Sequence record: NC_133119.1
Reading direction: 5' to 3' (one strand)
Length of the DNA stretch: 64,000 bases
DNA from: Escherichia phage EscoHU1
The notes beneath the pieces were generated by a model. That model searched no databases and was not told the DNA's origin. It worked only from the letters and a program-made list of their open reading frames with translations. This document shows, in pieces, positions 319 to 41,306 of this stretch. The translations under genes and the position numbers were made by a program. How positions within the stretch are numbered: the first letter of the stretch is position 1; every line of letters begins with the position of its first letter.

Positions 319-336
319 ACAAATTCCTTTAAATTG

Positions 337-412
337 GTTGACCGTCTGGGATTCGAACCCAGAACCTACGAGGTAAAAGCTCGGTACTCTTATCCAGTTG
401 AGTTAACGGTCA
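337..412 (-). tRNA. tRNA-Lys (anticodon UUU)
   Basis: Minus-strand cloverleaf: acceptor TTGACCG/CGGTCAA, T-arm CTGGG-TTCGAAT-CCCAG, anticodon loop CTTTTAC. Confidence 0.55.
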
Positions 413-600
413 ATTTAATACATGTATACTTCTTTAATAGAGTAGACTTTCAAGTAAGGATGATTAATACCAAATTCCGCCATCACTTCGTTTTCATCTT
501 TACCGTAGTGCGCTAGTGGATACTTCTTACGATCTTTGCTAGAACGTAAATCACTTACCTTTAAACGAAATAATTTCATTTCGAAATCCTTCTATTAAAT

Positions 601-678
601 TGGAAGCGGGTGCAGGAATCGAACCTACCTCTTTCTAGCTTATGAGACTAGCGATCTCTACCAGAGATCTAACCCGCA
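601..678 (-). tRNA. tRNA-Met (anticodon CAU; 1:72 unpaired, could be initiator-like)
   Basis: T-loop TTCGATT, anticodon stem CTAGT/GCTAG with loop CTCATAA, acceptor GCGGGT/ACCCGC with position 1 unpaired, encoded CCA. Confidence 0.5.
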
Positions 679-684
679 ATTATT

Positions 685-761
685 TGGTCTCCAATGAAGG
701 ACTCGAACCTTCAACCCCACCGCCCCAAACGGTGTACTCTAGCCAATTGAGCTAATCGGAG
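685..761 (-). tRNA. tRNA-Pro (anticodon UGG)
   Basis: Acceptor CTCCGAT/ATTGGAG, anticodon stem CACCG/CGGTG with loop TTTGGGG, T-arm GAAGG-TTCGAGT-CCTTC, CCA. Confidence 0.6.
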
Positions 762-978
762 AATATTCTTTGTTAACTCACTTTATAAAATATATTATAC
801 AGACATTTAAGTATAATAGCAAATGAGTTTTTAATAAATTTACTTATTGCGTAGGCCACCTGGAGGGTTCAAGCCCCACGGCTGACAAAGAAGTTTGCGA
901 GACTTCTCTTAAATGCCAGAATAGACCCGCCGATCTATCGGAACCTACTCGATAAGTAAACTTTCATTTACTTACTTA

Positions 979-1365
979 TTATGTGCTGTGTATTTCTCGA
1001 TGACAATTCGCACACACTAAAATACATTTCTGTAATTCTTCTCTCAGCTTATCCCTGGAAATACCAGAGGATCTGAATTGACTAATATTATAGTCTTTTG
1101 AGTTTTCATCAATATGATGAAAATCCAGAGCTTGTTTGCATTTATTATACCCACAAATAGAACATTCTAATATAGGGAAGTATTCTGCAATAATAGAATC
1201 AACAGTTTCACGTCTTTTTGCATTTTCGCTAATCTTACATGTTGGCTTCCACTTTTGTTTACCCGAGGGATATATTCCATTAGTATAGAAATATTCCTTG
1301 GTTAGTGGGTGTTCCACACCACAGTTTTTACAAAACTTGTATTCCATAGCTCCTCGAACAGTCAA
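979..1365 (-). CDS. HNH homing endonuclease
   Basis: 128 aa ORF with N-terminal CxxC zinc motifs and C-terminal HH...N...CANCH HNH signature; sits between tRNA genes. Confidence 0.7.
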   Translation of the reverse strand: MTVRGAMEYKFCKNCGVEHPLTKEYFYTNGIYPSGKQKWKPTCKISENAKRRETVDSIIAEYFPILECSICGYNKCKQALDFHHIDENSKDYNISQFRSSGISRDKLREELQKCILVCANCHREIHST

Positions 1366-1491
1366 TCTAGGCAGGACTTGAACCTGCTATCACTTGTGCG
1401 GATTTACGAGAACCATTCTTTCACTCGAATCGAACGAGCTTCTACCCTCGGCAAGCTGGTGCCCCCTCTCCACCACGCTAGAATGTTTATT

Positions 1492-1567
1492 TGGTACACC
1501 CACTAGGACTTGAACCTAGAACCCTCCGCTTAAGAGGCGGTAGCTCTAACCATTGAGCTATGGATGT
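1492..1567 (-). tRNA. tRNA, anticodon read as CUU (Lys); tentative
   Basis: T-arm CTAGG-TTCAAGT-CCTAG, acceptor ACATCCA/TGGGTGT with one G-U, loop CTCTTAA, encoded CCA. Confidence 0.45.
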
Positions 1568-1570
1568 ATA

Positions 1571-1660
1571 TTAGTCCATTGTACATCTACAAAAGAAACC
1601 CCATTTACCGCAGTGTGGACACTGTCCTCCAGAGTTTCTAGCAAAGGATTTGAACTTCAT
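1571..1660 (-). CDS. small Cys-rich peptide (about 29 aa), hypothetical
   Basis: Below ORF-track size cutoff; hand translation MKFKSFARNSGGQCPHCGKWGFFCRCTMD with AAGGAG RBS 7 nt upstream. Confidence 0.3.
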   Translation of the reverse strand: MKFKSFARNSGGQCPHCGKWGFFCRCTMD

Positions 1661-1678
1661 TCAACACTCCTTTAAAGT

Positions 1679-1755
1679 TGGCGCGACCGATGGGATTCGA
1701 ACCCACATTCTCTCCCGTGACAGGGGAGTACCATTACCAAGCCAGCCCCGATCGC
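1679..1755 (-). tRNA. tRNA-Asp (anticodon GUC)
   Basis: Acceptor GCGATCG/CGGTCGC, anticodon stem CTCCC/GGGAG with loop CTGTCAC, T-arm GTGGG-TTCGAAT-CCCAT, CCA. Confidence 0.6.
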
Positions 1756-1764
1756 ATAATTTGT

Positions 1765-1950
1765 TTACTCAGCTTTGAGTTTTTCGATAGCTTCCTTAAC
1801 CTCTTTTAGAGCTTCACGACGTGCATTCTGTTGCTGCATATCTTGTATTAACGTCAGTTTTTGGTTTTCAATTTCTTGATCCCAGACCTTAATATTATTA
1901 ATTAGATTATCACGATCAGCTTCTAGTCGAGCAATTGCACGAGTTGTCAT
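1765..1950 (-). CDS. hypothetical coiled-coil protein
   Basis: 61 aa ORF between tRNAs, charged heptad-like sequence. Confidence 0.45.
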   Translation of the reverse strand: MTTRAIARLEADRDNLINNIKVWDQEIENQKLTLIQDMQQQNARREALKEVKEAIEKLKAE

Positions 1951-1977
1951 ATCTATTTCCTCAGTTGTTAATGAAAT

Positions 1978-2060
1978 TGGCGGGCCGTGTAGGATTCGAA
2001 CCTACGTTGTCTTTCGACATGGATTAACAGTCCACCGCCAAACCGCTTGGCTAACGACCC
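1978..2060 (-). tRNA. tRNA with anticodon GUU (Asn) and an unusually long variable arm
   Basis: Acceptor GGGTCGT/ACGGCCC, D-stem GCCA/TGGC, anticodon stem GTGGA/TCCAT with loop CTGTTAA, variable GTCGAAAGAC mini-hairpin, T-arm GTAGG-TTCGAAT-CCTAC, CCA. Confidence 0.45.
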
Positions 2061-2067
2061 TAAAATT

Positions 2068-2143
2068 TGGACGACCGCATGAGATTCGAACTCACATAAG
2101 GAGGTTTTGCAGGCCTCCGCCTAAGCCATTCAGCCAACGGTCG
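2068..2143 (-). tRNA. tRNA, anticodon read as GCA (Cys); tentative
   Basis: Acceptor CGACCGT/GCGGTCG, T-arm GTGAG-TTCGAAT-CTCAT, loop CTGCAAA, CCA. Confidence 0.45.
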
Positions 2144-2321
2144 ATTTATCTTGTTTTTCGAGATCAACGAACTCTAAATCGTTGAAGTCTCCTAGAGTAC
2201 GGGAGTAATAACCGTCTCCAGCATCATAGCCTGATTTACCACACTTACACATCTTAAACTCACGTAGACGTGTAAAGATATGTTCAGAGCCACAACACTT
2301 AAATTTAACTAACTTTTTCAT
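2130..2321 (-). CDS. hypothetical zinc-ribbon protein
   Basis: 63 aa ORF with CC...H...C.C cysteine pattern. Confidence 0.45.
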   Translation of the reverse strand: MKKLVKFKCCGSEHIFTRLREFKMCKCGKSGYDAGDGYYSRTLGDFNDLEFVDLEKQDKSTVG

Positions 2322-2560
2322 CCAACACGCTCCGGTAAATCTTCGAGTTTATATTGAGTAGCCACATTAGCAGCATCTAGTAACAAACCCATATGTTTAA
2401 GAATTCTAGTGATAGCCTCGCCTTCTGCTTCTTCTACAAAGCAACGTAGTTGCATGAAGTCAATACCACCATCCATACCAGAGAAAATGTTAAGTAAGCG
2501 AAGCATTACCAGCTTACGTTCTTTTAATTCTTGTTCTGTCATGTTGCTTCTCCAGTTCAA
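2318..2560 (-). CDS. hypothetical protein
   Basis: 80 aa ORF with promoter cassette immediately upstream (2572-2600). Confidence 0.45.
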   Translation of the reverse strand: MNWRSNMTEQELKERKLVMLRLLNIFSGMDGGIDFMQLRCFVEEAEGEAITRILKHMGLLLDAANVATQYKLEDLPERVG

Positions 2561-2592
2561 TTTATGTAATAATTATACAGAACTTTAAGCGG

Positions 2593-2880
2593 TTAAGCAA
2601 CTACATTTTTCAGAAATATGATGCCTTTCTTTTTCTTCTTATATTTCCATGTTAATGGATTCTGTCGATTATGAACGCTTGAGATCTTTGTCTCGTCAAA
2701 GTTCTTCAGTACCATGTAATCACAGGCCAACTGTTCCAGTGGGATGTGATCTCCGTCAAAAGCATAAACATAAGGCTGTTGACTGGCACGATAATGATAT
2801 ACTTTGTTAATTCTGCGTTTCAGTGACTTATCCGCACAGTAAATAAAGAAGTTTTCAGGATGCATCAGCATCTCCTTCAA
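2593..2880 (-). CDS. hypothetical protein
   Basis: 95 aa ORF in minus-strand early region. Confidence 0.45.
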   Translation of the reverse strand: MKEMLMHPENFFIYCADKSLKRRINKVYHYRASQQPYVYAFDGDHIPLEQLACDYMVLKNFDETKISSVHNRQNPLTWKYKKKKKGIIFLKNVVA

Positions 2881-2883
2881 ATT

Positions 2884-2958
2884 GGTGCACCCCGTTGGTA
2901 ACGATCCAACCTCTCAAGCTCTTCAGGCAAGCGCTAATCCATCTCAGCTAAAGGTGCA
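2884..2958 (-). tRNA. tRNA-like sequence with non-canonical T-loop; anticodon unresolved (possibly GAA)
   Basis: Acceptor GCACCTT/GGGGTGC plus CCA and T-stem GTTGG/CCAAC, but T-loop ATCGTTA and weak anticodon stem. Confidence 0.3.
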
Positions 2959-2963
2959 AATAT

Positions 2964-3041
2964 TGGCAAACCTACTAGGACTCGAACCTAGACCGTACGG
3001 TTTTGGAGACCGACATGCTGTCCAGTAACACTCTAGGGATG
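2964..3041 (-). tRNA. tRNA, anticodon loop CTCCAAA (Trp, CCA); acceptor pairing not verified
   Basis: T-arm CTAGG-TTCGAGT-CCTAG and anticodon arm CGGT-CTCCAAA-ACCG resemble tRNA-Trp; 5' acceptor strand could not be paired by eye. Confidence 0.35.
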
Positions 3042-3048
3042 CAGAAAT

Positions 3049-3125
3049 TGGCGTCCTGTGCGGGGATCGAACCCGCAAATCCTACCTTGAAAGGGTAGTG
3101 ACTTTACCAGTTTGTCTAACAGGAC
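3049..3125 (-). tRNA. tRNA-Glu (anticodon UUC)
   Basis: Perfect acceptor GTCCTGT/ACAGGAC, anticodon stem CTACC/GGTAG with loop CTTTCAA, T-arm GCGGG-TTCGATC-CCCGC, CCA. Confidence 0.65.
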
Positions 3126-3132
3126 TTAAATT

Positions 3133-3223
3133 TGGTGTTGGATGATGGAGTCGAACCACCCGAGACCCTTCCGAGTCGGCAGATTTACAGTCTGCTTCGC
3201 TACCTCTACGATACTAATCCAAC
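3133..3223 (-). tRNA. tRNA-Tyr (anticodon GUA), long variable arm
   Basis: Acceptor GTTGGAT/ATCCAAC, anticodon stem GCAGA/TCTGC with loop CTGTAAA, long variable arm, T-loop TTCGACT, CCA. Confidence 0.55.
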
Positions 3224-3413
3224 ATATTTGAATGAAAAGTAAGTCGGTTAAACTCAAGGTGGAATATTTCAGGAAATCCTGACTTTACCCCTAAAAGCAA
3301 CTCGCTTAGTTACTTCTCATTCAGATATGTTTTCCAAATTAGATAACTATTATACCAAGTTTTGAAGGACTGAGCAAGTCAAATTTTAAAGAACTTGCTC
3401 AGTGCTATATCAG

Positions 3414-3689
3414 TTACTCGAAGCTAGGAGTGACACTCAGTTTGAATGGAAGCTCGAACACTTCTTCATAATCATCATTGAGCGTAATTACACGACCTTC
3501 TAGCTTAGTCATGGTGATTTCGATATCAGCCCTTGCATCAGGAGCCATACCAGCTTCCACACATTTAGCTTTGACTTCCGGCAGAAGTTCTACATCGTAG
3601 AAATAAAGCCATTCAATCTCACCCTCCCAGCCACCCCAGGATTTACAAACAGCACTTTCAACACCAGTTGCAGTAACACGTTTTGACAT
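3414..3689 (-). CDS. hypothetical protein
   Basis: 91 aa ORF, promoter cassette at 3720-3749. Confidence 0.5.
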   Translation of the reverse strand: MSKRVTATGVESAVCKSWGGWEGEIEWLYFYDVELLPEVKAKCVEAGMAPDARADIEITMTKLEGRVITLNDDYEEVFELPFKLSVTPSFE

Positions 3690-3719
3690 TCGTTAACCCC
3701 TTCATCAATTTATATAACT

Positions 3720-3749
3720 ATTATATCAGAAATCTTAAGTAAAAAGCAA
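3720..3749 (-). promoter_or_regulatory. T5-type early promoter (-35 TTGCTT, -10 TATAAT)
   Basis: Reverse complement gives TTGCTT, 18-nt spacer, TATAAT, followed by the conserved AT-rich leader. Confidence 0.5.
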
Positions 3750-3779
3750 GTACATTTTTAAAATTTCTGCTTGGAGGAG

Positions 3780-4052
3780 TTAAACTCCTGATTCTTCAGC
3801 CAGATCAAGCCCAACCAACGTGATTGCCATAATAGCTGCGCCATGTTCTTTCTCTCCTAGCTCTTTGGCTTGAGTGAGAATATTGAGGAATTGCTTTTGA
3901 AAATCTGCAACTTCTTCTGTCATGCCTGCTTCAGCAATAATTCCTTTCAGCATAAAGCGTTGTGCTGTAATTTCAGGATTAGCCATTTGTTTTCTCCAGT
4001 TATTTAGAATGTAAGCCAAACTTAGGATCATAGCGATCGTAAGTCGTACCAT
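3780..4052 (-). CDS. hypothetical protein
   Basis: 90 aa ORF. Confidence 0.45.
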   Translation of the reverse strand: MVRLTIAMILSLAYILNNWRKQMANPEITAQRFMLKGIIAEAGMTEEVADFQKQFLNILTQAKELGEKEHGAAIMAITLVGLDLAEESGV

Positions 4053-4136
4053 TAGTTGAAGCCTTGATGCTATGAAAACGACAGTACATAAATTTACGTA
4101 GTGCTTTCTTAATAGCTTTCATTTTATTTCCTTAAT

Positions 4137-4214
4137 TTGGTAGGGGTGGTGGGATTCGAACCCACAAAACCCGAATTTTAAGTCCGGTACCTATGCCAAT
4201 TCGATTACACCCCC
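4137..4214 (-). tRNA. tRNA with anticodon UAA (Leu-type anticodon) but short variable loop
   Basis: Acceptor GGGGGTG/CACCCCT, anticodon stem CCGGA/TTCGG with loop CTTAAAA, 5-nt variable loop, T-arm GTGGG-TTCGAAT-CCCAC, CCA. Confidence 0.45.
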
Positions 4215-4223
4215 ATGTAATCT

Positions 4224-4571
4224 TTAGAGTTCGTAACCCTGAATATATCGAGCAAAACCAGTAATCTCGAACTGAATTGCCCATGCTACTTCCATATGCT
4301 CAATCTTACTAAAATGAGCGTCAGACTGTTCTAGGAAATAACGAGAGATTATAGGGAACTCAATGTCAAAATCTTCCTTATCCATACCATAGAAGAAGTT
4401 TCCAGAAATATTACGAACTTCACGAAAGAAATCCTCAATCTGAAAATCCATCAGAGGATAAGTATATTCCTCTTTGCTATCATCCGTTTGGAAGAAGCGG
4501 AAATGCACAAGGCAAGAGCCAATCAGATTTACTGCTGGAGTAGTGTAAATATCCATGTTAACCTCGATCAA
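4224..4571 (-). CDS. hypothetical protein
   Basis: 115 aa ORF. Confidence 0.5.
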   Translation of the reverse strand: MIEVNMDIYTTPAVNLIGSCLVHFRFFQTDDSKEEYTYPLMDFQIEDFFREVRNISGNFFYGMDKEDFDIEFPIISRYFLEQSDAHFSKIEHMEVAWAIQFEITGFARYIQGYEL

Positions 4572-4743
4572 TATCTAGAGAAATTCCAAATTCTGGATTA
4601 ATACCAGAACCATTACATGCTGCACATTCCCACTCTTCAAAACGCATATCGCCAGGTTCAGCATCATTAATAGTACCTGTTCCATGGCAGTGAGCACACA
4701 TGCACTCTTCTAGTTCTTGTTTAAGCTCTTGAAACTTAGACAT
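4558..4743 (-). CDS. hypothetical zinc-ribbon protein
   Basis: 61 aa ORF with two CxxC pairs (CAHCHG...CAAC). Confidence 0.5.
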   Translation of the reverse strand: MSKFQELKQELEECMCAHCHGTGTINDAEPGDMRFEEWECAACNGSGINPEFGISLDIDRG

Positions 4744-4760
4744 ATAGTCTCCTAGTTAAT

Positions 4761-4838
4761 TGGTGGCTCCCGGAGGATTCGAACCTACCTACCTTTCGCT
4801 TATGAGGCGACGGCTCATACCAAATGAGCTTGAGAACC
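4761..4838 (-). tRNA. tRNA with anticodon CAU (Met or lysidine-Ile)
   Basis: Acceptor GGTTCTC/GGGAGCC with G-U pairs, anticodon loop CTCATAA, T-loop TTCGAAT, CCA. Confidence 0.5.
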
Positions 4839-4843
4839 AAATT

Positions 4844-4937
4844 TGGAGGAAGATGCCAGACTCGAACTGGCACACCGTGTCTCCACAGCTACTGGCTGTT
4901 TAGCAAACAGCTCCCTTACCTTTAGGGTTAATCTTCC
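4844..4937 (-). tRNA. tRNA-Ser (anticodon GCU), type II
   Basis: Acceptor GGAAGAT/ATCTTCC, anticodon stem GCTGT/ACAGC with loop TTGCTAA, long variable arm, T-arm GCCAG-TTCGAGT-CTGGC, CCA. Confidence 0.55.
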
Positions 4938-9682: not shown

Positions 9683-10213
9683 TTATAAATTTAAGTAATC
9701 TAGAGAAGGTATCACACCATCAAATTCTTCTAGGATAGCAAACTCTCCAGCAAATTCTTTCCTCATTTCGTTAGCTTTTGCTATCGCACTTCCAAGATCT
9801 TCGTAACCAAAAGATCCTCCTGATCTTTTAATACCTTCCTTATCTCTTATTAATACTCTCCATTTTTGCCTGTTCTTCTCCCAGCATACATTAGCATACC
9901 CAGACTTAGACTTTAATTTCTTATTTCTTTGATTTTGAGAATCTGTAGATTCTCTTAGATTGTCCCATGCATTATTATTTCTAATCCTATCTTTATGATC
10001 GACCATGCTAGGTAGGTATCCTTTTACATAAAGGAATGCTAGAACATGGGCTAAGTACATTTTTCCAGAGATCTGAATTCTGATATATCCATCAGATGTT
10101 AGGCTTCCCGCAATGCTGCCGGCCTTCTTGTTTCCTCTACTAACCTTATATGTAAACAATCCAGTTTCTTGATCATAGTCAAAAAGCTCTTTCAATTTTT
10201 CTTGAGTTAACAT
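9683..10213 (-). CDS. HNH homing endonuclease with AP2-type DNA-binding domain
   Basis: 176 aa; N-terminal HNH_3-like region (YIRIQISGKMYLAHVLAF...VDHKDRIRNNNAWDNLRE) and C-terminal AP2-like region (GYANVCWEKNRQKWRVLIRDKEG). Confidence 0.7.
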   Translation of the reverse strand: MLTQEKLKELFDYDQETGLFTYKVSRGNKKAGSIAGSLTSDGYIRIQISGKMYLAHVLAFLYVKGYLPSMVDHKDRIRNNNAWDNLRESTDSQNQRNKKLKSKSGYANVCWEKNRQKWRVLIRDKEGIKRSGGSFGYEDLGSAIAKANEMRKEFAGEFAILEEFDGVIPSLDYLNL

Positions 10214-10229
10214 AAGTTCCTTAAATACA

Positions 10230-10263
10230 GAAAAGCCCTGCGCTCTCCAGGGAACGCAGGGCT
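10230..10263 (-). terminator. intrinsic terminator downstream of the SPFH gene
   Basis: Hairpin GCCCTGCG...CGCAGGGC followed by a T-run on the minus strand. Confidence 0.5.
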
Positions 10264-10287
10264 TACTTCAGAGATTACATGCTGGTA

Positions 10288-11235
10288 TTACTTATTACGC
10301 ATATCCATGATCATCTGGCCATCGTAACCAGTTCCCACTACTGTTTGCGGTACACCACCTTGGTATTTTTCAGCACGAAGCATTTCAACTTCCAGCTGCT
10401 TCCAACGAATCATTTCAGGAGTAATGGTACGTTGCAGAGCGGCGTTAGCTTCAGCTTCTTTCTTAGCTGCGTACAGTTTAGCATCTGCGTCACGTTCGTT
10501 AGCTACTGCCATGTTTTCACGAGCAGAGCGATCTGCTTCAGCTTGCTTAACTTTCTGCTGTGCTTCTTGTTCAACACGAGCCAGTTCAGCTTTTGCTGCG
10601 TTAACTTGTTCTTCACGAACTTTTGTGTTCTGTACCTGTTCCATAATTACCGGTGGCAGAGTAATATCCTGAAGGAATACTTGCTTAACGGTGTAACCAT
10701 AAGGGCGCGCATACTCTTCTACTTCTTGCTGAATAGCAGTTTGCAGTTGAGCCTGAATCTTAGCGTCGAACAGATCTTGTGCTTTTGGTACAGACTTACC
10801 AAACTCACGAATCGTAGATAGCATCTTCTCTTCAACGTATTTGTTAAGAGCTTGATCCTGAGTACCTGCGTTAACACGGTTCATAGGAGCTTTAGCTCCA
10901 TCAAACTGTAACATAACGGTAATGTCAACAGTAGACTTAAACTTATCCTGGCTAGGAACCTGAAGTTTATCCAGTTTCATAGAAATATCTTTCGTACTAA
11001 AAGTATCAAAAGAGGCTAATGGGTTAACAATATGGAAGCCTGGCAATACAGGATTCGGGCTAACTTTACCCAGGAAAGTTTGAGTCTTAACAGTACCATC
11101 CTGAACAACTGTATAGGAATTGAGAGCCAGAATAAGAGCACCAAGACCAACAGCAGCACCAACACCCCAACGTTTAATAGTACGAATTACTTTTTGCTCA
11201 GAAGTCAGTTCTTTAGTGTTTTTAGTAAACATATA
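10288..11235 (-). CDS. SPFH/band-7 (HflC/HflK/prohibitin-like) membrane protein
   Basis: N-terminal transmembrane helix then band-7-like domain and long coiled-coil tail; start taken at MFTKNTKEL because the longer ORF would overlap tRNA-Arg. Confidence 0.6.
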   Translation of the reverse strand, partial: YMFTKNTKELTSEQKVIRTIKRWGVGAAVGLGALILALNSYTVVQDGTVKTQTFLGKVSPNPVLPGFHIVNPLASFDTFSTKDISMKLDKLQVPSQDKFKSTVDITVMLQFDGAKAPMNRVNAGTQDQALNKYVEEKMLSTIREFGKSVPKAQDLFDAKIQAQLQTAIQQEVEEYARPYGYTVKQVFLQDITLPPVIMEQVQNTKVREEQVNAAKAELARVEQEAQQKVKQAEADRSARENMAVANERDADAKLYAAKKEAEANAALQRTITPEMIRWKQLEVEMLRAEKYQGGVPQTVVGTGYDGQMIMDMRNK

Positions 11236-11265
11236 TTTCCTTTGTTTAGTTACAGTTAATAAAAT

Positions 11266-11340
11266 TGGCCGAGGTGACAGGATTCGAACCTGCATAAAGG
11301 AATTTAGAAGACTCCTGCCTATCCCTTAGACTACACCCCG
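11266..11340 (-). tRNA. tRNA-Arg (anticodon UCU)
   Basis: Acceptor CGGGGTG/CACCTCG, anticodon stem GGAGT/ATTCC with loop CTTCTAA, T-arm GCAGG-TTCGAAT-CCTGT, CCA. Confidence 0.55.
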
Positions 11341-12192
11341 TTTAGGTATTTTTAAGAACTCTCGTAAAAGTCCATAAAAATACCCGACGGTAGGTAGGGT
11401 CAGCCCCCTCAGATTAAGCTCTGCAGCCCTTCCGTCAGACAATATCTTCCAGTTTAAGTCAGGGTGACTTTGTGGTTATGTTCTCCGTATGTGAAGAACT
11501 CGGTTAGGCTTAGGTCATGACTCCCAGCCTGCTGCTGCCGCTCAACAGGAATTATCGCGAATTACCTGTACTATTGGGCACCATTAGTGACATCTCTCAT
11601 GTCAGCATTTCCCACTCTCATATTCACGCGGTCTGTTAGAATCGCACCTCCGATTTTCGATGCGAAGCTGGATGCCTAGTCTCTAGGTTAAACGGGGCAC
11701 ACACTAGGCAGTGATCCCGAGTTCCGAGTTTGGTTGAGGCCGTCAGGTTTCCTCGTGGTTTAGCTGTTTCGATTCTAACCTAATACTGATCAGGCGGTGT
11801 ACCTCCTGAACCGTCATAGTATGTACTACAGCAGCGAATGCTTATCCGGTATAAGCCCGAGTTATCTGATTCTTTCCGACCGCAGGATTCGAACCTGCAT
11901 CTTCCACCAGTTACGGTTTGATATTACCGTTTATACTAGGACGGCAGTGTTATCACATAAGTCAGTTCGACACCCCACTAACATAAACTAGAGAAGAGTT
12001 TACGAGATTTCGGGACAGCTCCCGAGTTTTCCGCAGATTTTCAGTTCCCTATCAATAGCAATAAGCGTTAGCTCGTAGCCTCTCTCAGAGTACTTACTAG
12101 TCTCCAACTCACCGACTCTATTCAGTGGAATAGCTATCCTAGTAGGAATCACTAAACTCACTCAGCGTAATCGGCTCGCTGTTCTCTAATTT
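11341..12192 (-). ncRNA. candidate long structured non-coding transcript / tRNA leader
   Basis: About 850 nt with no ORF over 64 codons on either strand, visibly higher GC than flanking DNA, directly downstream of a consensus promoter (12201-12229) and upstream of tRNA-Arg; contains a tRNA-like T-arm at about 11880-11896. Confidence 0.35.
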
Positions 12193-12200
12193 ATGAATCT

Positions 12201-12229
12201 ATTATACAGAATTTTGAAGCGTTTAGCAA
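12201..12229 (-). promoter_or_regulatory. T5-type promoter driving the ORF-free region
   Basis: Reverse complement TTGCTA-17-TATAAT; no ORF downstream. Confidence 0.5.
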
Positions 12230-12237
12230 ATCAATTT

Positions 12238-12681
12238 TTAATTAAATTCGCCAGCAACCTGAGCAGCAATGCCACCATCGTAACGACCAGGAAACTCTTC
12301 CTTAATCGCTTTCATCAGCATACCCTTTGTAATCCCAGGATTCAACTTAACTAATTCTGCAAAGTATTTGCGAATCTCAGAATCAGATAACTGAGGCGGC
12401 AGATACTGTTGTAGCCATTTGTTCAGTATATATTCATACTGAGCAGACTGCAAGCTATAATTATCAAGGTCTTGACCGTGAAGTTTAGCTTTCGTCTGAT
12501 TAATGCTTTTCAGTTGAGCTTTTAGATAAGATACAAACTGTTCAGAAGTAATGAAGTCTTTATCAACACGCTGAAGATCTCCGATTATGGTCTGGTAGCT
12601 TTTAGCTACTTCTTTATCAGAACCATCAACCTTAGATTCCTGCAAAGCCCTACGCAAAACATCTAGAATATTCTCTTCCAT
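12238..12681 (-). CDS. GatB/YqeY-domain protein
   Basis: 147 aa; LNKWLQQYLPPQLSDSEIRKYFAEL...GMLMKAIKEEFPGRYDGGIAAQV resembles the YqeY/GatB C-terminal domain (EYLP.QLS...GR.DG). Confidence 0.5.
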   Translation of the reverse strand: MEENILDVLRRALQESKVDGSDKEVAKSYQTIIGDLQRVDKDFITSEQFVSYLKAQLKSINQTKAKLHGQDLDNYSLQSAQYEYILNKWLQQYLPPQLSDSEIRKYFAELVKLNPGITKGMLMKAIKEEFPGRYDGGIAAQVAGEFN

Positions 12682-12850
12682 TATTTAATTCCCAGTGCTT
12701 GGTTAAAAGATTGTTCTGTCATAACTGCCGAGACTTTGGCGAAATCAAACTTCTTAGGGTTTGTAGTAATTTCAGCAACGTTAGTAGTTTTAACTGTTTT
12801 CGTAGTACGGATACCACGAGTATTAACACCAATAATTACAACTGATTTCA
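12681..12850 (-). CDS. small hypothetical protein (about 55 aa)
   Basis: Hand-translated ORF MKSVVIIGVNTRGIRTTK... with GAGAGGAAG RBS; below ORF-track cutoff. Confidence 0.35.
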
Positions 12851-12882
12851 TATTTCGCTTCCTCTCATTAATTTATGAAAGT

Positions 12883-12911
12883 ATTATACAGAAATTTAAG
12901 TCTTTAAGCAA
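12883..12911 (-). promoter_or_regulatory. T5-type early promoter
   Basis: Reverse complement TTGCTT-17-TATAAT. Confidence 0.5.
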
Positions 12912-12919
12912 TCGAATTT

Positions 12920-13369
12920 TTAAGTTTTCTTAACCACAGGCTTATAGAACGTATGACCTTGAATCTTCGTTGTTTTCTTAAACTTCTTTGTCCAGTACGG
13001 TTTATCTTTACCACTATGAAAGTATAACGCTCCATGTGTTGGATCTTGTGGTAAATCAACGTAGTATATCACTCTAGCTAAATTCTTAGCAACTTGCCAA
13101 GCCTCATCGGTTTTATCAACTTTTGGTCTCTTGGCCACCCAAGAGAACTGGTTAGACTGATATACTACTTTACAGTAAGAATCAGGAAAAGTACCAGAGT
13201 TAACACGGTTTTTAGTAACCTGTGCAACTGCGATCATTCCTTTAGTGCCCTCACCTCGTGCTTCGAAGTAGATGTTTTTTGCAATGCAATCAATCTGCTT
13301 TGAGTCGTAGGTCGCATGACTATTGAAGCTATAGGTTAGGGCAGCTATTAAAAGCAAAGCTGCCTTCAT
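12920..13369 (-). CDS. SleB-family cell-wall hydrolase with signal peptide
   Basis: Signal peptide MKAALLLIAALTYSFNSHA then NIYFEARGE...IAVAQVTKNRV...YCKVVYQSNQFSW (SleB/Hydrolase_2 hallmark); start at MKAALL with GGAG RBS. Confidence 0.6.
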   Translation of the reverse strand: MKAALLLIAALTYSFNSHATYDSKQIDCIAKNIYFEARGEGTKGMIAVAQVTKNRVNSGTFPDSYCKVVYQSNQFSWVAKRPKVDKTDEAWQVAKNLARVIYYVDLPQDPTHGALYFHSGKDKPYWTKKFKKTTKIQGHTFYKPVVKKT

Positions 13370-13374
13370 TTTAT

Positions 13375-13692
13375 TTACTCCGGCCAATCGTACTCAATAC
13401 GATTAGGGCTTTCTTGATACCCTTCGTCTAGGAGATCATTACGCATGGTCTCTTTAGCTACTGGGTTCGAGGTTACTAGTACCACTTTCTTGGGTCTCTG
13501 ACCAAATTCTAGGAGTAAACGAAGAATTTGATAACCTTCCATACCATCTACAGCCAGATCGTTATCCATATAAACGAAATGACCGGTGGTATCGGTTTTA
13601 TTCAGAAACTCAACAGCGGCTTCGGGGGTTCGAATGATAATGTCCATTCCATGAAGGTTACGCACATCATCAATCAGAATATGAAAAATCAT
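13375..13692 (-). CDS. hypothetical protein, receiver-like fold suspected
   Basis: 105 aa ORF; alternating hydrophobic strands and acidic residues (ILIDDV...YMDNDL...VVLVTSNP). Confidence 0.4.
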   Translation of the reverse strand: MIFHILIDDVRNLHGMDIIIRTPEAAVEFLNKTDTTGHFVYMDNDLAVDGMEGYQILRLLLEFGQRPKKVVLVTSNPVAKETMRNDLLDEGYQESPNRIEYDWPE

Positions 13693-13722
13693 AATAGCCT
13701 CGTCTCATCAATTTAAAAATAT

Positions 13723-13751
13723 ATTATACAGAAAACTAAACTAATTAGCAA
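13723..13751 (-). promoter_or_regulatory. T5-type early promoter
   Basis: Reverse complement TTGCTA-17-TATAAT, RBS and ATG of the 13692 gene follow. Confidence 0.5.
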
Positions 13752-14131
13752 ATACATTTTTAAATTGAGAGACTAGTAAACCGATAAACAGCCTAGAGGC
13801 GCCACAGGCCATATCTTATGAGCCATGTACCTTTGATCTAGGGTTTGAATCATCAACGAATACTTTGCATCTTTTAGCTTTAGAAGGTTAGAAGTTTGAG
13901 TTCTTTTAACTTTTCAGCTTTCATACTTGAGCGTTGATCTTTGAAGTTGTGTTGGTACTACCAACGACCGTTTTTACAGTTCAGCTTAAGAGGCTGGTGT
14001 AATAAACATAATCTCCAATAGATTATACTTTATAGTATGGTCAGCGGTCTTATTTAACCTCGTATTTCAACCGCTGCTGCGAGGTAAGATGCTTGGGCTT
14101 TCGTCTACCGATTTACTAGTCTTTTAAATTA

Positions 14132-40357: not shown

Positions 40358-41244
40358 GTAGAATAACAGAACTACTTGATCTGAAAGGCATTGAATACAA
40401 AGACACAGGTGGGGACATCCTCATCTGTTGTCTCAATCCAGATCATGATGATAAACATCCAAGCTTGCGTATTGATCCTGAATCAGGTATTATGCATTGC
40501 TTGAGCTGTGGCTTCGGTAGAGGAATACCGAGCATTTACCATTATTTTAATGAGACTCAGTACAGACAGTCACCAAGATTGTCACAAGTACGTAAAAAGA
40601 TTTCAGAGATTAGGAATGGATCTACGAATCTTGCAATTCCTGAATCTGCTTACCTTTTCGAAGGTGATTTCCGAGGTATCAGTTCTAAGACCTTGAAGAA
40701 ATATTTTGCTTTCCAACATCAAGCAGACTGGGAAGGCAGAATTGTATTCCCAATAACAGATGCTGTTGGACGCAATATCCTATTTCTGGGACGTTCTATA
40801 AACAGTTCTGCCCCTCCTAAATACTTAGTAAAACCAAAACAAGTTTCACCACCGATTTTCCCTGTACGATATAATACACCAGTTCTTGTTCTAGTTGAAG
40901 GTATCTTTGATATGTTAAATCTAGAAGATAACGGTGTGGATTATGCTTCTTGCTGCTTTGGTACACATCAGTTTACATCTGATAACATTGCTGATAAGTT
41001 CAGTCCTTACATTATTGCTGGAGTAAGAGTAGTTGTTATCTTGCTAGATAATGATGCCTCTGGTAATAAAGCTGCCCAAGCACTAGCGAAGCTAATTCGT
41101 ACAAAAACACGTTTAACACCTGTAGTTGGTAACTTCCTTCTTCCAGAAGGCAAAGACCCAGGTGACTTAAATAAAGAAGAGATCGATATGTTGGCTCAAC
41201 GTATTGAAATTTTAGTTGCCGAATCGCTCAAAGATTTGGTATAA
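40354..41244 (+). CDS. DnaG-like DNA primase
   Basis: Zinc-binding CHC2-type motif (CLNPDHDDKHPS...HCLSCG) and Toprim region (VLVEGIFD...LDNDASG). Confidence 0.65.
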   Translation: MSRITELLDLKGIEYKDTGGDILICCLNPDHDDKHPSLRIDPESGIMHCLSCGFGRGIPSIYHYFNETQYRQSPRLSQVRKKISEIRNGSTNLAIPESAYLFEGDFRGISSKTLKKYFAFQHQADWEGRIVFPITDAVGRNILFLGRSINSSAPPKYLVKPKQVSPPIFPVRYNTPVLVLVEGIFDMLNLEDNGVDYASCCFGTHQFTSDNIADKFSPYIIAGVRVVVILLDNDASGNKAAQALAKLIRTKTRLTPVVGNFLLPEGKDPGDLNKEEIDMLAQRIEILVAESLKDLV

Positions 41245-41306
41245 TATATTGGTAAGTTAGAGAAGAAACACTGAAGTTATACTTACTTACCAAAAGGAGA
41301 CTAAAT

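What the first reader, a model, noticed from the sequence alone, without database searches (positions are those of the whole stretch)
11341..12237. About 0.9 kb ORF-free, GC-elevated region under its own strong promoter beside tRNA-Arg
A consensus T5-type promoter (12201-12229, minus strand) fires into roughly 850 nt with no ORF longer than 64 codons on either strand and visibly higher GC than the surrounding AT-rich phage DNA. The region ends at tRNA-Arg (11266-11340) and contains short GC hairpins (e.g. CGGGACAGCTCCCG near 12010) and a tRNA-like T-arm (GCAGGTTCGAATCCTGC, about 11880-11896) that does not resolve into a clean cloverleaf. This fits a large structured non-coding RNA, a long processed tRNA leader, or degenerate tRNA remnants; large structured RNAs in phages are often found next to tRNA genes.
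Basis: partly seen in the sequence, partly recalled or inferred. Interest (0 to 1): 0.75.

Follow-up and report, generated by a model that had tools for sequence, protein, structure and literature searches.

The report
T5-type RNAX large structured RNA
This ORF-free stretch is this phage's copy of 'RNAX', a roughly 0.85-kb folded non-coding RNA that T5-like phages make from a strong early promoter just upstream of tRNA-Arg; it has been annotated in phage T5 for about 20 years, but I found no published structure or function for it.

Summary
Window 12229-11341 (minus strand) holds a consensus sigma-70 promoter, then about 854 nt with no ORF over 64 codons. GC is 0.463 against a window mean of 0.403. 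The stretch ends exactly at tRNA-Arg(UCU).

It is not new as a locus. T5, BF23, phage 5, DT57C and DT571/2 GenBank records annotate the homologous stretch as misc_RNA rnaX, "stable RNA with unknown functions", with promoter P16-17.

The RNA is modular:
- a 5' hairpin domain with a conserved base and a swappable tip;
- a tRNA-like element held in a 12-bp covarying clamp helix;
- a 3' core present in every homologue examined, containing a hairpin with an invariant palindromic loop (AGUCAUGA), a three-way junction and a long terminal hairpin.

Compensatory base changes support these helices. Substitutions show no codon periodicity. No Rfam family other than tRNA matches. The core motif occurs only in T5-like phage genomes.

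Function remains unknown. My best reading is an abundant trans-acting structured RNA. Its layout parallels GOLLD and ROOL (phage-borne, beside tRNAs, conserved 3' half, embedded tRNA, self-complementary loop), but it is not a member of either family.

The parts
12201..12229 (-). Sigma-70 promoter (P16-17 type): -35 TTGCTA at 12229-12224, 17-nt spacer, -10 TATAAT at 12206-12201. The start site was not mapped here. It is inferred at about 12194 (A of AUAAAUU); the equivalent of the GenBank RNAX 5' end is about 12187.
   Evidence: Annotated as promoter P16-17 in T5, BF23 and S114.
11341..12194 (-). RNAX primary transcript up to the RNase P site of tRNA-Arg: about 854 nt, non-coding, GC 0.463.
   Evidence: Whole-RNA MFE -266 kcal/mol, z = -3.3.
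12105..12181 (-). 5' domain: a long irregular hairpin. The base helix (CAGC..GCCGAUU pairing with AGUCGGU..GUUG) is almost invariant. The tip hairpin exists in at least 4 unrelated sequence versions among relatives. The whole domain is absent in T5 and SHSML-45.
   Evidence: z = -3.81; absence shown.
11991..12029 (-). Conserved block B, containing the hairpin CGGGAGCUGUCCCG (12024-12011) followed by AAAUCUCGUAAACUCUUCUC. It is 90-95% identical in Yersinia and Klebsiella phage versions and absent from the T5 type.
11952..11965 (-). Clamp helix, 5' strand (CUGACUUAUGUGAU). It pairs with 11870-11857.
   Evidence: 12 pairs, 6 with compensatory changes, 99.4% of cells paired, on a structure-blind MAFFT alignment.
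11874..11945 (-). tRNA-like element: acceptor stem with 2 mismatches, D arm, T arm, a non-canonical anticodon arm and no encoded CCA. The anticodon arm differs between lineages. The element is deleted or replaced in phage 1-29 and two other loci.
   Evidence: Annotated as a pseudo-tRNA in T5 record AY587007.
11857..11870 (-). Clamp helix, 3' strand (AUCAGAUAACUCGG).
11840..11856 (-). Hairpin GCUUAU-ACCGG-AUAAGC. The stem covaries: GCUUUU/AAAAGC, GCUUC/GAAGC, GGUUC/GAACC.
   Evidence: helix 7.
11625..11839 (-). Variable middle region, lineage-specific. It includes the motif AAACCACG (11761-11754) and conserved block D (11665-11625), whose loop carries GGAGGU (11651-11646).
   Evidence: Folding here is no better than shuffled sequence (z = +0.5).
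11472..11616 (-). 3' domain, first half: a predicted multi-hairpin domain closed by GUGG (in AGUGGGAAA, 11616-11608) pairing with CCAC (in AUAACCAC, 11479-11472). Both motifs are nearly invariant.
   Evidence: The closing helix is predicted only; it shows no covariation.
11507..11529 (-). Hairpin GGCUGGG-AGUCAUGA-CCUAAGCC. The 8-nt loop (11522-11515) is invariant in all 21 distinct variants (UCAUGA is a palindrome), while the stem covaries.
   Evidence: (invariant columns).
11480..11499 (-). Hairpin H1, GUUCU..AGAAC.
   Evidence: all 5 pairs show compensatory changes on a MAFFT alignment.
11443..11469 (-). Invariant hairpin H2, AGUCA-CCC-UGACU (11469-11457), plus the single-stranded junction UAAACUGGAAGAUA (11456-11443).
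11384..11438 (-). Three-way junction: closing stem CUGACGG/CCGUCGG plus AGG/CCU, and two hairpins separated by the conserved CUUAAU.
   Evidence: the same topology is predicted independently for 5 sequence types; model-based alignment with 4 + 2 + 1 pairs showing compensatory changes.
11346..11383 (-). Terminal AU-rich hairpin of 15 bp with the conserved loop UUUACGAG. In every lineage it is followed directly either by tRNA-Arg or by the ribosome-binding site of an inserted ORF.
11266..11340 (-). tRNA-Arg(UCU). Its RNase P cleavage would create the 3' end of RNAX (inference).
10233..10264 (-). Intrinsic terminator ending the transcription unit (RNAX, tRNA-Arg, SPFH/Band_7 gene).
   Evidence: Annotated as a bidirectional terminator in T5 and BF23.

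Best explanation
The region is the Epseptimavirus orthologue of the T5-family gene rnaX. It is a non-coding, multi-domain structured RNA.

Shown here:
- A conserved strong sigma-70 promoter fires into about 854 nt that carry no coding signal.
- The RNA is built of modules: a 5' hairpin domain; a tRNA-like element held between the two strands of a covarying 12-bp clamp helix; a lineage-variable middle; and a 3' core of about 270 nt.
- The 3' core contains a hairpin with an invariant palindromic loop, the invariant hairpin AGUCA-CCY-UGACU, a three-way junction and a 15-bp terminal hairpin.
- The core from the palindromic-loop hairpin onward is present in every homologue aligned; all 46 T5-like loci searched with the model contain its last 127 nt.

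Inferred:
- Host RNA polymerase makes the RNA early and in large amounts.
- RNase P cleavage at tRNA-Arg, or an endonuclease cut after the terminal hairpin in phages that have an ORF inserted there, frees a stable RNA. Structured 5' and 3' ends would protect it.
- It then acts in trans as a folded RNA particle rather than as a message.
- The most likely mode of action is as a scaffold or decoy in the tRNA and RNA-metabolism side of host takeover.
- It may self-associate through the palindromic loop.

The confidence of 0.75 applies to 'expressed structured ncRNA orthologous to RNAX'. The trans-acting scaffold or decoy mechanism on its own deserves about 0.35.
For: Homology and annotation:
- 533 phage records hold a match.
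- The T5 reference genome, AY734508, BF23, phage 5, DT57C and DT571/2 annotate the homologous stretch as misc_RNA rnaX, 'stable RNA with unknown functions', flanked by promoter P16-17 and tRNA-Arg.

Non-coding:
- No ORF over 64 aa.
- Variable columns are spread evenly over the three codon positions (p = 0.81-0.97), and indels are mostly not multiples of 3.

Structure, on a structure-blind MAFFT alignment of 27 distinct sequences:
- 98% of cells are paired, against 30-44% when partners are slid.
- 15 pairs changed on both sides, against 1-4 when slid.
- 0 of 500 shuffles reach the observed values.

Structure, 3' core:
- A covariance model built from 9 window-type sequences finds every T5-like locus at 62-158 bits.
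- It finds nothing in 715 kb of unrelated viral DNA except one 22.6-bit match.
- 94% of cells are paired against 34-52% slid, and 10 pairs changed on both sides against 2-3.
- The same three-way junction is predicted independently for 5 sequence types.
- The stem of the palindromic-loop hairpin covaries while its loop is invariant.

Stability: z = -3.86 for the 3' core and -3.81 for the 5' domain.

Selection: alignable modules are 80-82% identical between this phage and VEc33. Third codon positions of the flanking genes are 67-78% identical.

There is no terminator inside the region; the unit ends at 10264-10233.
Against: - No expression data were available. 'Stable RNA' rests on GenBank annotation only, and I found no paper on RNAX in the searchable library.
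- The sequences fall into only about 5 lineage types, so the compensatory changes represent few independent events.
- Alignment A4 was fitted to the model structure, which biases its pair counts.
- Whole modules are dispensable: T5 lacks the 5' domain, and phage 1-29 lacks the tRNA-like element.
- The middle region folds no better than shuffled sequence.
- Nothing tested here says whether the RNA acts in trans.
Confidence: 0.75

Rival explanations
1. Cis-acting leader. The 0.85 kb exists to deliver tRNA-Arg and the downstream genes. It would shield a long untranslated transcript from Rho, provide entry and cleavage sites for RNase P, E or III, and stabilise the downstream message. On this reading it has no function once cut off.
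For: - It is physically the leader of tRNA-Arg and the SPFH gene, with no internal terminator.
- The terminal hairpin always directly abuts either tRNA-Arg or the ribosome-binding site of an inserted ORF.
- The clamp helix around the tRNA-like element resembles paired leader and trailer stems of stable-RNA precursors (established knowledge of rRNA and tRNA precursor processing).
- Block B has a hairpin followed by a CUCUU tract, loosely like the boxB-boxA antitermination signals of rrn leaders (sequence reading only, not tested).
Against: - Other tRNAs in the same window, packed into clusters at 335-4937, have no comparable leader.
- In several lineages a 169-aa ORF separates RNAX from tRNA-Arg, yet the 3' core is kept.
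- A core of about 270 nt with invariant single-stranded motifs and a covarying three-way junction is far more than known leaders need.
- Block B is absent from the T5 type.
Confidence: 0.15
2. tRNA decoy. The functional part would be the tRNA-like element. It would soak up or mislead host tRNA-targeting defence nucleases or tRNA-binding sensors, in the way that phage tRNAs counter PARIS, Retron-Eco7 and PrrC. The rest of the RNA would be carrier.
For: - The element keeps its acceptor, D and T arms with covariation.
- Its anticodon arm differs sharply between lineages: a conserved GUAACUG loop, a UCA anticodon, or 15-20 nt expansions. That pattern fits an arms race.
- T5-family tRNAs are documented counter-defence tools (PMC11555353; PMC10644984).
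Against: - The tRNA-like element is missing in 1-29, L018 and L030, while the 3' core is never missing.
- No specific nuclease target resembles its loop.
- Not tested experimentally.
Confidence: 0.1
3. Genomic debris: decayed tRNA genes and scars left by homing endonucleases, in a recombination hot spot that happens to be transcribed.
For: - The region is mosaic, 650 to about 1800 bp long.
- HNH and other ORFs are inserted in some relatives.
- One pseudo-tRNA shares an 18-nt T-arm segment with tRNA-Arg.
- The middle part folds no better than shuffled sequence.
Against: - Compensatory changes keep helices intact across genera.
- Motifs of 10-27 nt are invariant where neighbouring synonymous sites are only 67-78% identical.
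- Only one tRNA-like element is detectable.
- The promoter is retained in every relative checked.
Confidence: 0.03
4. A missed protein-coding gene or set of micro-ORFs, as annotated automatically in some relatives ('hypothetical protein' x2-x5).
For: Several GenBank records place short hypothetical CDSs here.
Against: - No ORF over 64 aa.
- No third-position bias in substitutions, and indels of 1, 2, 4 and 5 nt dominate.
- The annotated CDSs differ from record to record.
Confidence: 0.02

Closest known systems
rnaX / RNAX of phages T5, BF23, phage 5, DT57C and DT571/2 (GenBank misc_RNA, 'stable RNA with unknown functions')
   Same: - Same position: promoter P16-17, then RNAX, then tRNA-Arg(UCU), then the SPFH gene.
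- 75% identity over 75% of the length.
- Shared tRNA-like element, clamp helix and 3' core.
   Different: - The window copy (854 nt) has block B, block D and about 60 extra nt in the middle that the T5 type lacks.
- T5 itself (719 nt) lacks the 5' domain and has a duplicated motif flanking an insertion of about 87 nt.
GOLLD and ROOL large phage RNAs (Rfam families; cryo-EM nanocages, PMC12286853)
   Same: - Phage-encoded and next to tRNA islands, roughly 600 to over 800 nt, function unknown.
[quoted passage not shown]
- tRNAs are sometimes embedded in the GOLLD linker.
- Self-interacting kissing loops hold the assemblies together.
- RNAX shows each of these layout features.
   Different: - No match to either Rfam model at E up to 10 for the window or up to 5 for six relatives.
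- No sequence or secondary-structure correspondence was established.
- Oligomerisation of RNAX is untested.
- The hosts are Enterobacteriaceae rather than Lactobacillales, Actinobacteria or rumen and marine organisms.
Small stable RNAs of unknown function ('species 1 and 2') in the phage T4 tRNA cluster (from my own knowledge of the older literature, not checked here)
   Same: Non-tRNA stable RNAs co-transcribed with phage tRNAs and released by the tRNA-processing machinery; function unknown.
   Different: They are about 120-140 nt, so RNAX is 5-7 times larger. No homology was tested.
Non-decoding tRNA-like modules inside larger RNAs (tmRNA, bacterial Y RNA YrlA, mascRNA)
   Same: A tRNA-shaped module with a T arm and an acceptor stem, embedded in a larger functional RNA.
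   Different: - In RNAX the clamp extends from the acceptor end, so the ends are not free.
- ARAGORN and Rfam find no tmRNA or Y RNA.
- There is no tag ORF.
Palindromic-loop dimerisation hairpins (HIV-1 DIS) and the loop-loop rings of phi29 pRNA (from my own knowledge)
   Same: A hairpin that presents a strictly conserved 6-nt self-complementary sequence (UCAUGA) in its loop.
   Different: This is only a sequence analogy. Dimerisation was not tested. The loop could instead pair within the molecule with the invariant AGUCA/UGACU hairpin.

Membership tests
T5-family rnaX (RNAX) | Lies between promoter P16-17 and tRNA-Arg(UCU), upstream of the SPFH/Band_7 gene | tested here: met
T5-family rnaX (RNAX) | Sequence homology to the annotated rnaX genes | tested here: met
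   75% identity over 75% of the length to BF23 and phage 5 rnaX. nhmmer modules M2 and M4 reach E of 1e-22 to 1e-45. T5-type loci score 62-71 bits with model R1, which was built from window-type sequences.
T5-family rnaX (RNAX) | Accumulates as a stable RNA in infected cells | not testable with these tools
   Asserted only in GenBank notes. No paper was found.
tRNA (for the element at 11945-11874) | Cloverleaf recognised by the tRNA covariance model | tested here: inconclusive
   29.3 bits against a gathering score of 29, with the anticodon arm left unaligned. ARAGORN finds it only at relaxed thresholds. Homologues score 26-40 bits.
tRNA (for the element at 11945-11874) | Canonical 7-nt anticodon loop, fully paired acceptor stem, and a free or encoded CCA end | tested here: not met
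   The acceptor stem has G1-A72 and U5-U68 mismatches. The loop GUAACUG is non-canonical. The 3' trailer is AAAGAAUCAG with no CCA and pairs into the clamp helix.
GOLLD / ROOL | Match to the Rfam covariance model | tested here: not met
   No hit at E up to 10 in window 10000-14000, and none at E up to 5 in six diverse relatives.
GOLLD / ROOL | Homo-oligomeric RNA-only assembly | not testable with these tools
   The only lead is the invariant palindromic loop.
tmRNA | tRNA-like domain plus a tag-peptide reading frame | tested here: not met
   ARAGORN, which also detects permuted tmRNA, and Rfam find none.
Group I intron (considered because of HNH ORFs in relatives and an AAGAUAU-like motif) | Match to the Rfam intron model, flanking exons of a split gene, and a P3-P7 core | tested here: not met
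   No Rfam hit. tRNA-Arg and the flanking genes are intact. The segment after GGAAGAUA pairs downstream to form the three-way junction, not a P7 helix.

The most novel reading that the evidence does not exclude
RNAX would be a third, independent class of 'ornate' large phage RNA, alongside GOLLD and ROOL.

On this reading it is an abundant early RNA whose shared 3' core folds into a compact body. That body would self-associate through the invariant UCAUGA loop into dimers or larger RNA-only assemblies. The assemblies would display or enclose the clamped tRNA-like element, and would act on host tRNA or ribosome metabolism or on tRNA-directed defences.

Because it sits in T5, a genetically tractable E. 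coli phage, it would make the unsolved function of such RNAs directly testable.
Probability: 0.2. Interest if true: 0.85.

Novelty: already known. Interest (0 to 1): 0.55.

Why it matters
Large structured RNAs of unknown function are rare. The two phage-associated classes, GOLLD and ROOL, were recently shown to build RNA-only cages, and their biology is still unknown (PMC12286853).

RNAX has been an unexplained line in the T5 genome record for two decades. It is absent from Rfam, and automatic pipelines routinely over-annotate it as 'hypothetical proteins', 'tRNA-Sec' or 'tRNA-OTHER'.

That turns it into a concrete experimental target in one of the best-studied E. coli and Salmonella phage families. 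Deletions, loop mutants, cryo-EM and defence-system panels are all straightforward there.

Tried and rejected
- **Known RNA families.** Rfam at permissive thresholds on the window and six relatives returned only tRNA. GOLLD, ROOL, tmRNA, RNase P RNA, 6S RNA, group I and II introns, and riboswitches are therefore rejected as memberships.
- **Host mimicry or antisense.** blastn of the RNA against 5,426 complete E. coli genomes found no match.
- **Array of degenerate tRNAs.** Only one tRNA-like element appears. Further ARAGORN calls at a 70% threshold overlap each other on both strands and are noise.
- **Group I intron.** Prompted by HNH ORFs in relatives and by GGAAGAUAUUGUCUG, which resembles the J8/7-P7 region of T4 introns as I remember it. 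Rejected: there are no split exons and no model hit, and the segment pairs downstream.
- **Wider distribution.** The 22-nt core motif occurs only in T5-like genomes in IMG/VR, plus one isolated match in L057, and in none of 185,579 species genomes. A looser gapped pattern gave about 120 chance hits with no core behind them, so that scan told nothing.
- **Metagenome scan.** Using the neighbouring YqeY-like protein as bait gave only 7 loci, all T5-type.
- **RNAalifold long-range helix on alignment A1** (columns 4-7 with 300-303). I judged this a MAFFT misalignment artefact, because per-sequence folds favour a local hairpin.
- **Pairing between block B and the terminal loop.** There are 9 perfect base pairs, but no covariation, and about 1.4 such matches are expected by chance. 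Left as an idea.
- **Literature.** Searches for RNAX and for T5 non-coding RNA found nothing specific.
Full report
**What the window is.** The window comes from a T5-like phage of the genus Epseptimavirus. The 897-bp finding is 98.4-98.7% identical to Salmonella phages beppo, S114 and Stitch, and 468 phage records match it by megablast. Everything relevant is read on the minus strand.

**Checking the observation.**
- A sigma-70 promoter (TTGCTA, 17 nt, TATAAT) lies at 12229-12201. It is one of the two best matches (10 of 12) in 3.5 kb.
- tRNA-Arg(UCU) is at 11340-11266.
- Between them no ORF exceeds 64 codons, and that one is antisense to the transcript.
- GC is 0.463, against 0.403 +/- 0.026 for windows of equal size. 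Only 2.4% of such windows are as GC-rich.
- One correction: the T-arm belongs to a recognisable cloverleaf. Rfam's tRNA model scores 29.3 bits, just at the gathering score, with the anticodon arm unaligned. ARAGORN finds it at relaxed thresholds.
- There is no terminator inside the region. The unit runs on through tRNA-Arg and an SPFH/Band_7 gene to a terminator at 10264-10233.

**The locus is already annotated.** A more sensitive blastn found 533 records. Among them, the tRNA-region records of BF23 and phage 5 annotate the homologous stretch as misc_RNA rnaX, "RNAX, stable RNA with unknown functions". It starts inside "promoter P16-17" and ends at tRNA-Arg. The T5 reference genome AY543070/NC_005859 (719 nt, positions 40848-41566), AY734508, DT57C and DT571/2 carry the same annotation. 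The other T5 record, AY587007, marks a pseudo-tRNA there. Most other records leave the stretch blank or fill it with short hypothetical CDSs, "tRNA-Sec" or "tRNA-OTHER". I found no paper that discusses RNAX in the searchable library. The basis for "stable" could therefore not be checked.

**Architecture across relatives.** I collected homologues from Tequintavirus, Epseptimavirus, Yersinia phage phiR2-01 and the Klebsiella Sugarlandvirus phages, from GenBank, IMG/VR and metagenomes. The promoter is retained in the relatives checked. The region is a mosaic, 650 to about 1800 bp long.

The following modules are present in the loci indicated:
- The 5' domain is missing in T5 and SHSML-45.
- The tRNA-like element with its conserved flanks is missing in 1-29, L018 and L030.
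- The 3' core from the palindromic-loop hairpin onward is present in every homologue aligned, and all 46 T5-like loci searched with the model contain its last 127 nt.

Blocks B (12029-11991) and D (11665-11625) are 90-95% identical between this phage and the Klebsiella and Yersinia phages, but are absent from the T5 type. Some relatives carry an HNH endonuclease ORF just after the promoter. Others carry a 169-aa ORF between RNAX and tRNA-Arg. RNAX therefore does not need to touch tRNA-Arg.

**Evidence for a folded RNA: clamp and tRNA-like element.** I aligned 27 distinct sequences covering 11980-11760 with MAFFT, which takes no account of structure. RNAalifold then predicts three things: a 12-bp helix pairing 11965-11952 with 11870-11857, so that it clamps the tRNA-like element; the tRNA-like arms; and a following hairpin at 11856-11840. 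The pair counts are as follows:

| Measure | Observed | Partners slid |
|---|---|---|
| Cells paired | 98% | 30-44% |
| Pairs changed on both sides | 15 | 1-4 |
| Shuffles reaching the observed values | 0 of 500 | n/a |

Six of the twelve clamp pairs show compensatory changes.

**Evidence for a folded RNA: the 3' core.**
- Hairpin H1 (11499-11480) has compensatory changes at all five pairs on a MAFFT alignment.
- The segment after UAAACUGGAAGAUA folds independently into the same three-way junction in five sequence types.
- A covariance model built from nine window-type sequences (window 11471-11345) finds all 46 T5-like loci at 62-158 bits.
- The same model finds nothing in 715 kb of unrelated viral DNA except one 22.6-bit match.
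- On its alignment, 94% of cells pair against 34-52% when slid, and 10 pairs changed on both sides against 2-3. This alignment is fitted to the model, so it leans towards the structure.
- The hairpin at 11529-11507 has a covarying stem (GGC/GCC, AGC/GCU, GUGAC/GUCAC, ACUAAAC/GUUUAGU, GACU/AGUC). Its 8-nt loop AGUCAUGA is invariant in all 21 distinct variants.

**Other structural evidence.**
- The 5' domain has an invariant base helix and a tip that has been replaced by at least four unrelated hairpins.
- Folding energies are well below shuffled controls for the 3' core (z = -3.86), the 5' domain (z = -3.81) and the whole RNA (z = -3.3). They are not for the variable middle (z = +0.5).

**Not coding, and under selection.** Variable columns are spread evenly over the three codon positions (p = 0.81-0.97). 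Indels of 1, 2, 4 and 5 nt dominate. Between this phage and VEc33, third codon positions of the flanking genes are 67-78% identical and first and second positions 91-100%. The alignable RNAX modules are 80-82% identical and contain invariant runs of 10-27 nt. That pattern fits an RNA with paired stems and free loops.

**Distribution.** The 22-nt core motif (AGTCACCYTGACNWWAACTGGA) is found only in T5-like genomes in IMG/VR, plus one isolated match. It is absent from 185,579 bacterial and archaeal species genomes. E. coli genomes have no similarity to the RNA on either strand.

**How it probably works.**

Shown:
- a strong conserved promoter;
- a non-coding, structurally constrained RNA;
- structured 5' and 3' ends;
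- a 3' boundary at an RNase P substrate.

Inferred:
- Host RNA polymerase makes the RNA abundantly in the early phase. The early timing and strength of such promoters come from the T5 promoter literature as I know it.
- RNase P cleavage at tRNA-Arg releases it. The terminal 15-bp hairpin and the 5' hairpin domain then protect the ends.
- The clamp keeps the tRNA-like element as a side branch. Alternatively it marks the element for excision; this is undecided.
- The 3' core is the working part.

Its invariant single-stranded motifs and the palindromic loop suggest specific contacts, either with a partner or with another copy of itself. I rate "expressed structured ncRNA orthologous to RNAX" at 0.75. 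I rate the narrower [quoted passage not shown] at about 0.35. A purely cis-acting leader gets 0.15, and a decoy centred on the tRNA-like element 0.10. Debris and hidden coding are each at or below 0.03.

**Comparison with what is known.**
- Membership in rnaX is met on synteny and homology.
- Membership in tRNA fails for the embedded element: acceptor mismatches, a non-canonical loop, and no CCA.
- Memberships in GOLLD, ROOL, tmRNA and group I introns fail.
- In layout, RNAX is closest to GOLLD and ROOL. According to PMC12286853 these are phage-encoded RNAs near tRNA islands, with function unknown. [quoted passage not shown] Self-interacting kissing loops join the cage halves. RNAX reproduces each of these layout features, but this is a resemblance, not a demonstrated relationship.

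**Verdict.** The finding is real and correctly interpreted, but the locus is already on record as RNAX. What remains open is its structure in three dimensions, its processing and its function. That question is interesting, and this phage family is a convenient place to answer it.

Noticed in passing
window 11883-11900 and 11278-11295: An 18-nt segment (ATGCAGGTTCGAATCCTG on the RNA strand) is identical in the T-arms of the tRNA-like element and of tRNA-Arg. This suggests a common origin or gene conversion.
   Followed up: no
window 12011-11999 and 11368-11356: UCUCGUAAA in block B is perfectly complementary over 9 bp to the invariant loop UUUACGAGA of the terminal hairpin. This could be a 5'-3' tertiary contact. 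However, there is no covariation, about 1.4 such matches are expected by chance, and the T5 type lacks block B.
   Followed up: partly
window 11651-11646 (inside block D, 11665-11625): A conserved predicted hairpin loop carries GGAGGU, the exact complement of the 16S rRNA anti-Shine-Dalgarno sequence. No conserved start codon or ORF follows it. It is absent from the T5 type.
   Followed up: partly
L007 1492-1565, L012 1656-1729, L015 1184-1257: In some Epseptimavirus relatives the same tRNA-like element has a regular anticodon stem and a UCA anticodon (ARAGORN 'SeC(tca)', GenBank 'tRNA-Sec'). It may be an opal-suppressor-like tRNA. In L014, L032, L035 and L047 that arm instead carries a 15-20 nt expansion.
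   Followed up: no
L011 1244-1726, L015 664-1146; L004, L007, L012, L013, L015 (510-bp ORF): The locus is an insertion hot spot. An HNH_3 endonuclease ORF replaces the 5' domain in mar003J3 and RA40. A 169-aa ORF with no Pfam match sits between RNAX and tRNA-Arg in several phages.
   Followed up: partly
L056 (phage T5) 5792-5813 and 5879-5900; L046: In T5 and one metagenomic relative the invariant 22-mer AGTCACCTTGACTTAAACTGGA is duplicated about 87 nt apart, flanking an inserted segment. It looks like a target-site duplication.
   Followed up: no
L016 (IMGVR_UViG_3300035698_009252, 139.6 kb), minus strand around 2270-2288: An unrelated large phage contig carries CAGCGGGCCGAUUACGCUG directly after a tRNA. 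A perfect complement of its loop (AAUCGGC) lies about 70 nt downstream, and the segment folds like the RNAX 5' domain. It sits upstream of an ORF that looks like an acyl-carrier protein. The 5' domain may be a separate, more widespread module.
   Followed up: partly
L057 (IMGVR_UViG_3300028534_000003) 11187-11208: An exact copy of the 22-nt RNAX core motif lies at the end of an ORF in an otherwise unrelated 97-kb viral contig. Model R1 scores it only 22.6 bits, and about 0.1 such matches are expected by chance.
   Followed up: partly
window 335-4937: Thirteen further tRNA genes lie on the minus strand (Lys x2, Met x2, Pro, Asp, Asn, Cys, Trp, Glu, Tyr, Leu, Ser). They form the phage tRNA island downstream of the RNAX unit.
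   Followed up: no
window 12238-12681: The gene directly upstream of the RNAX promoter has a weak YqeY-like (GatB-tail-type) domain: 25.4 bits, below Pfam's threshold of 27. It could be an RNA- or tRNA-binding partner. Klebsiella phages lack this gene at that position.
   Followed up: no
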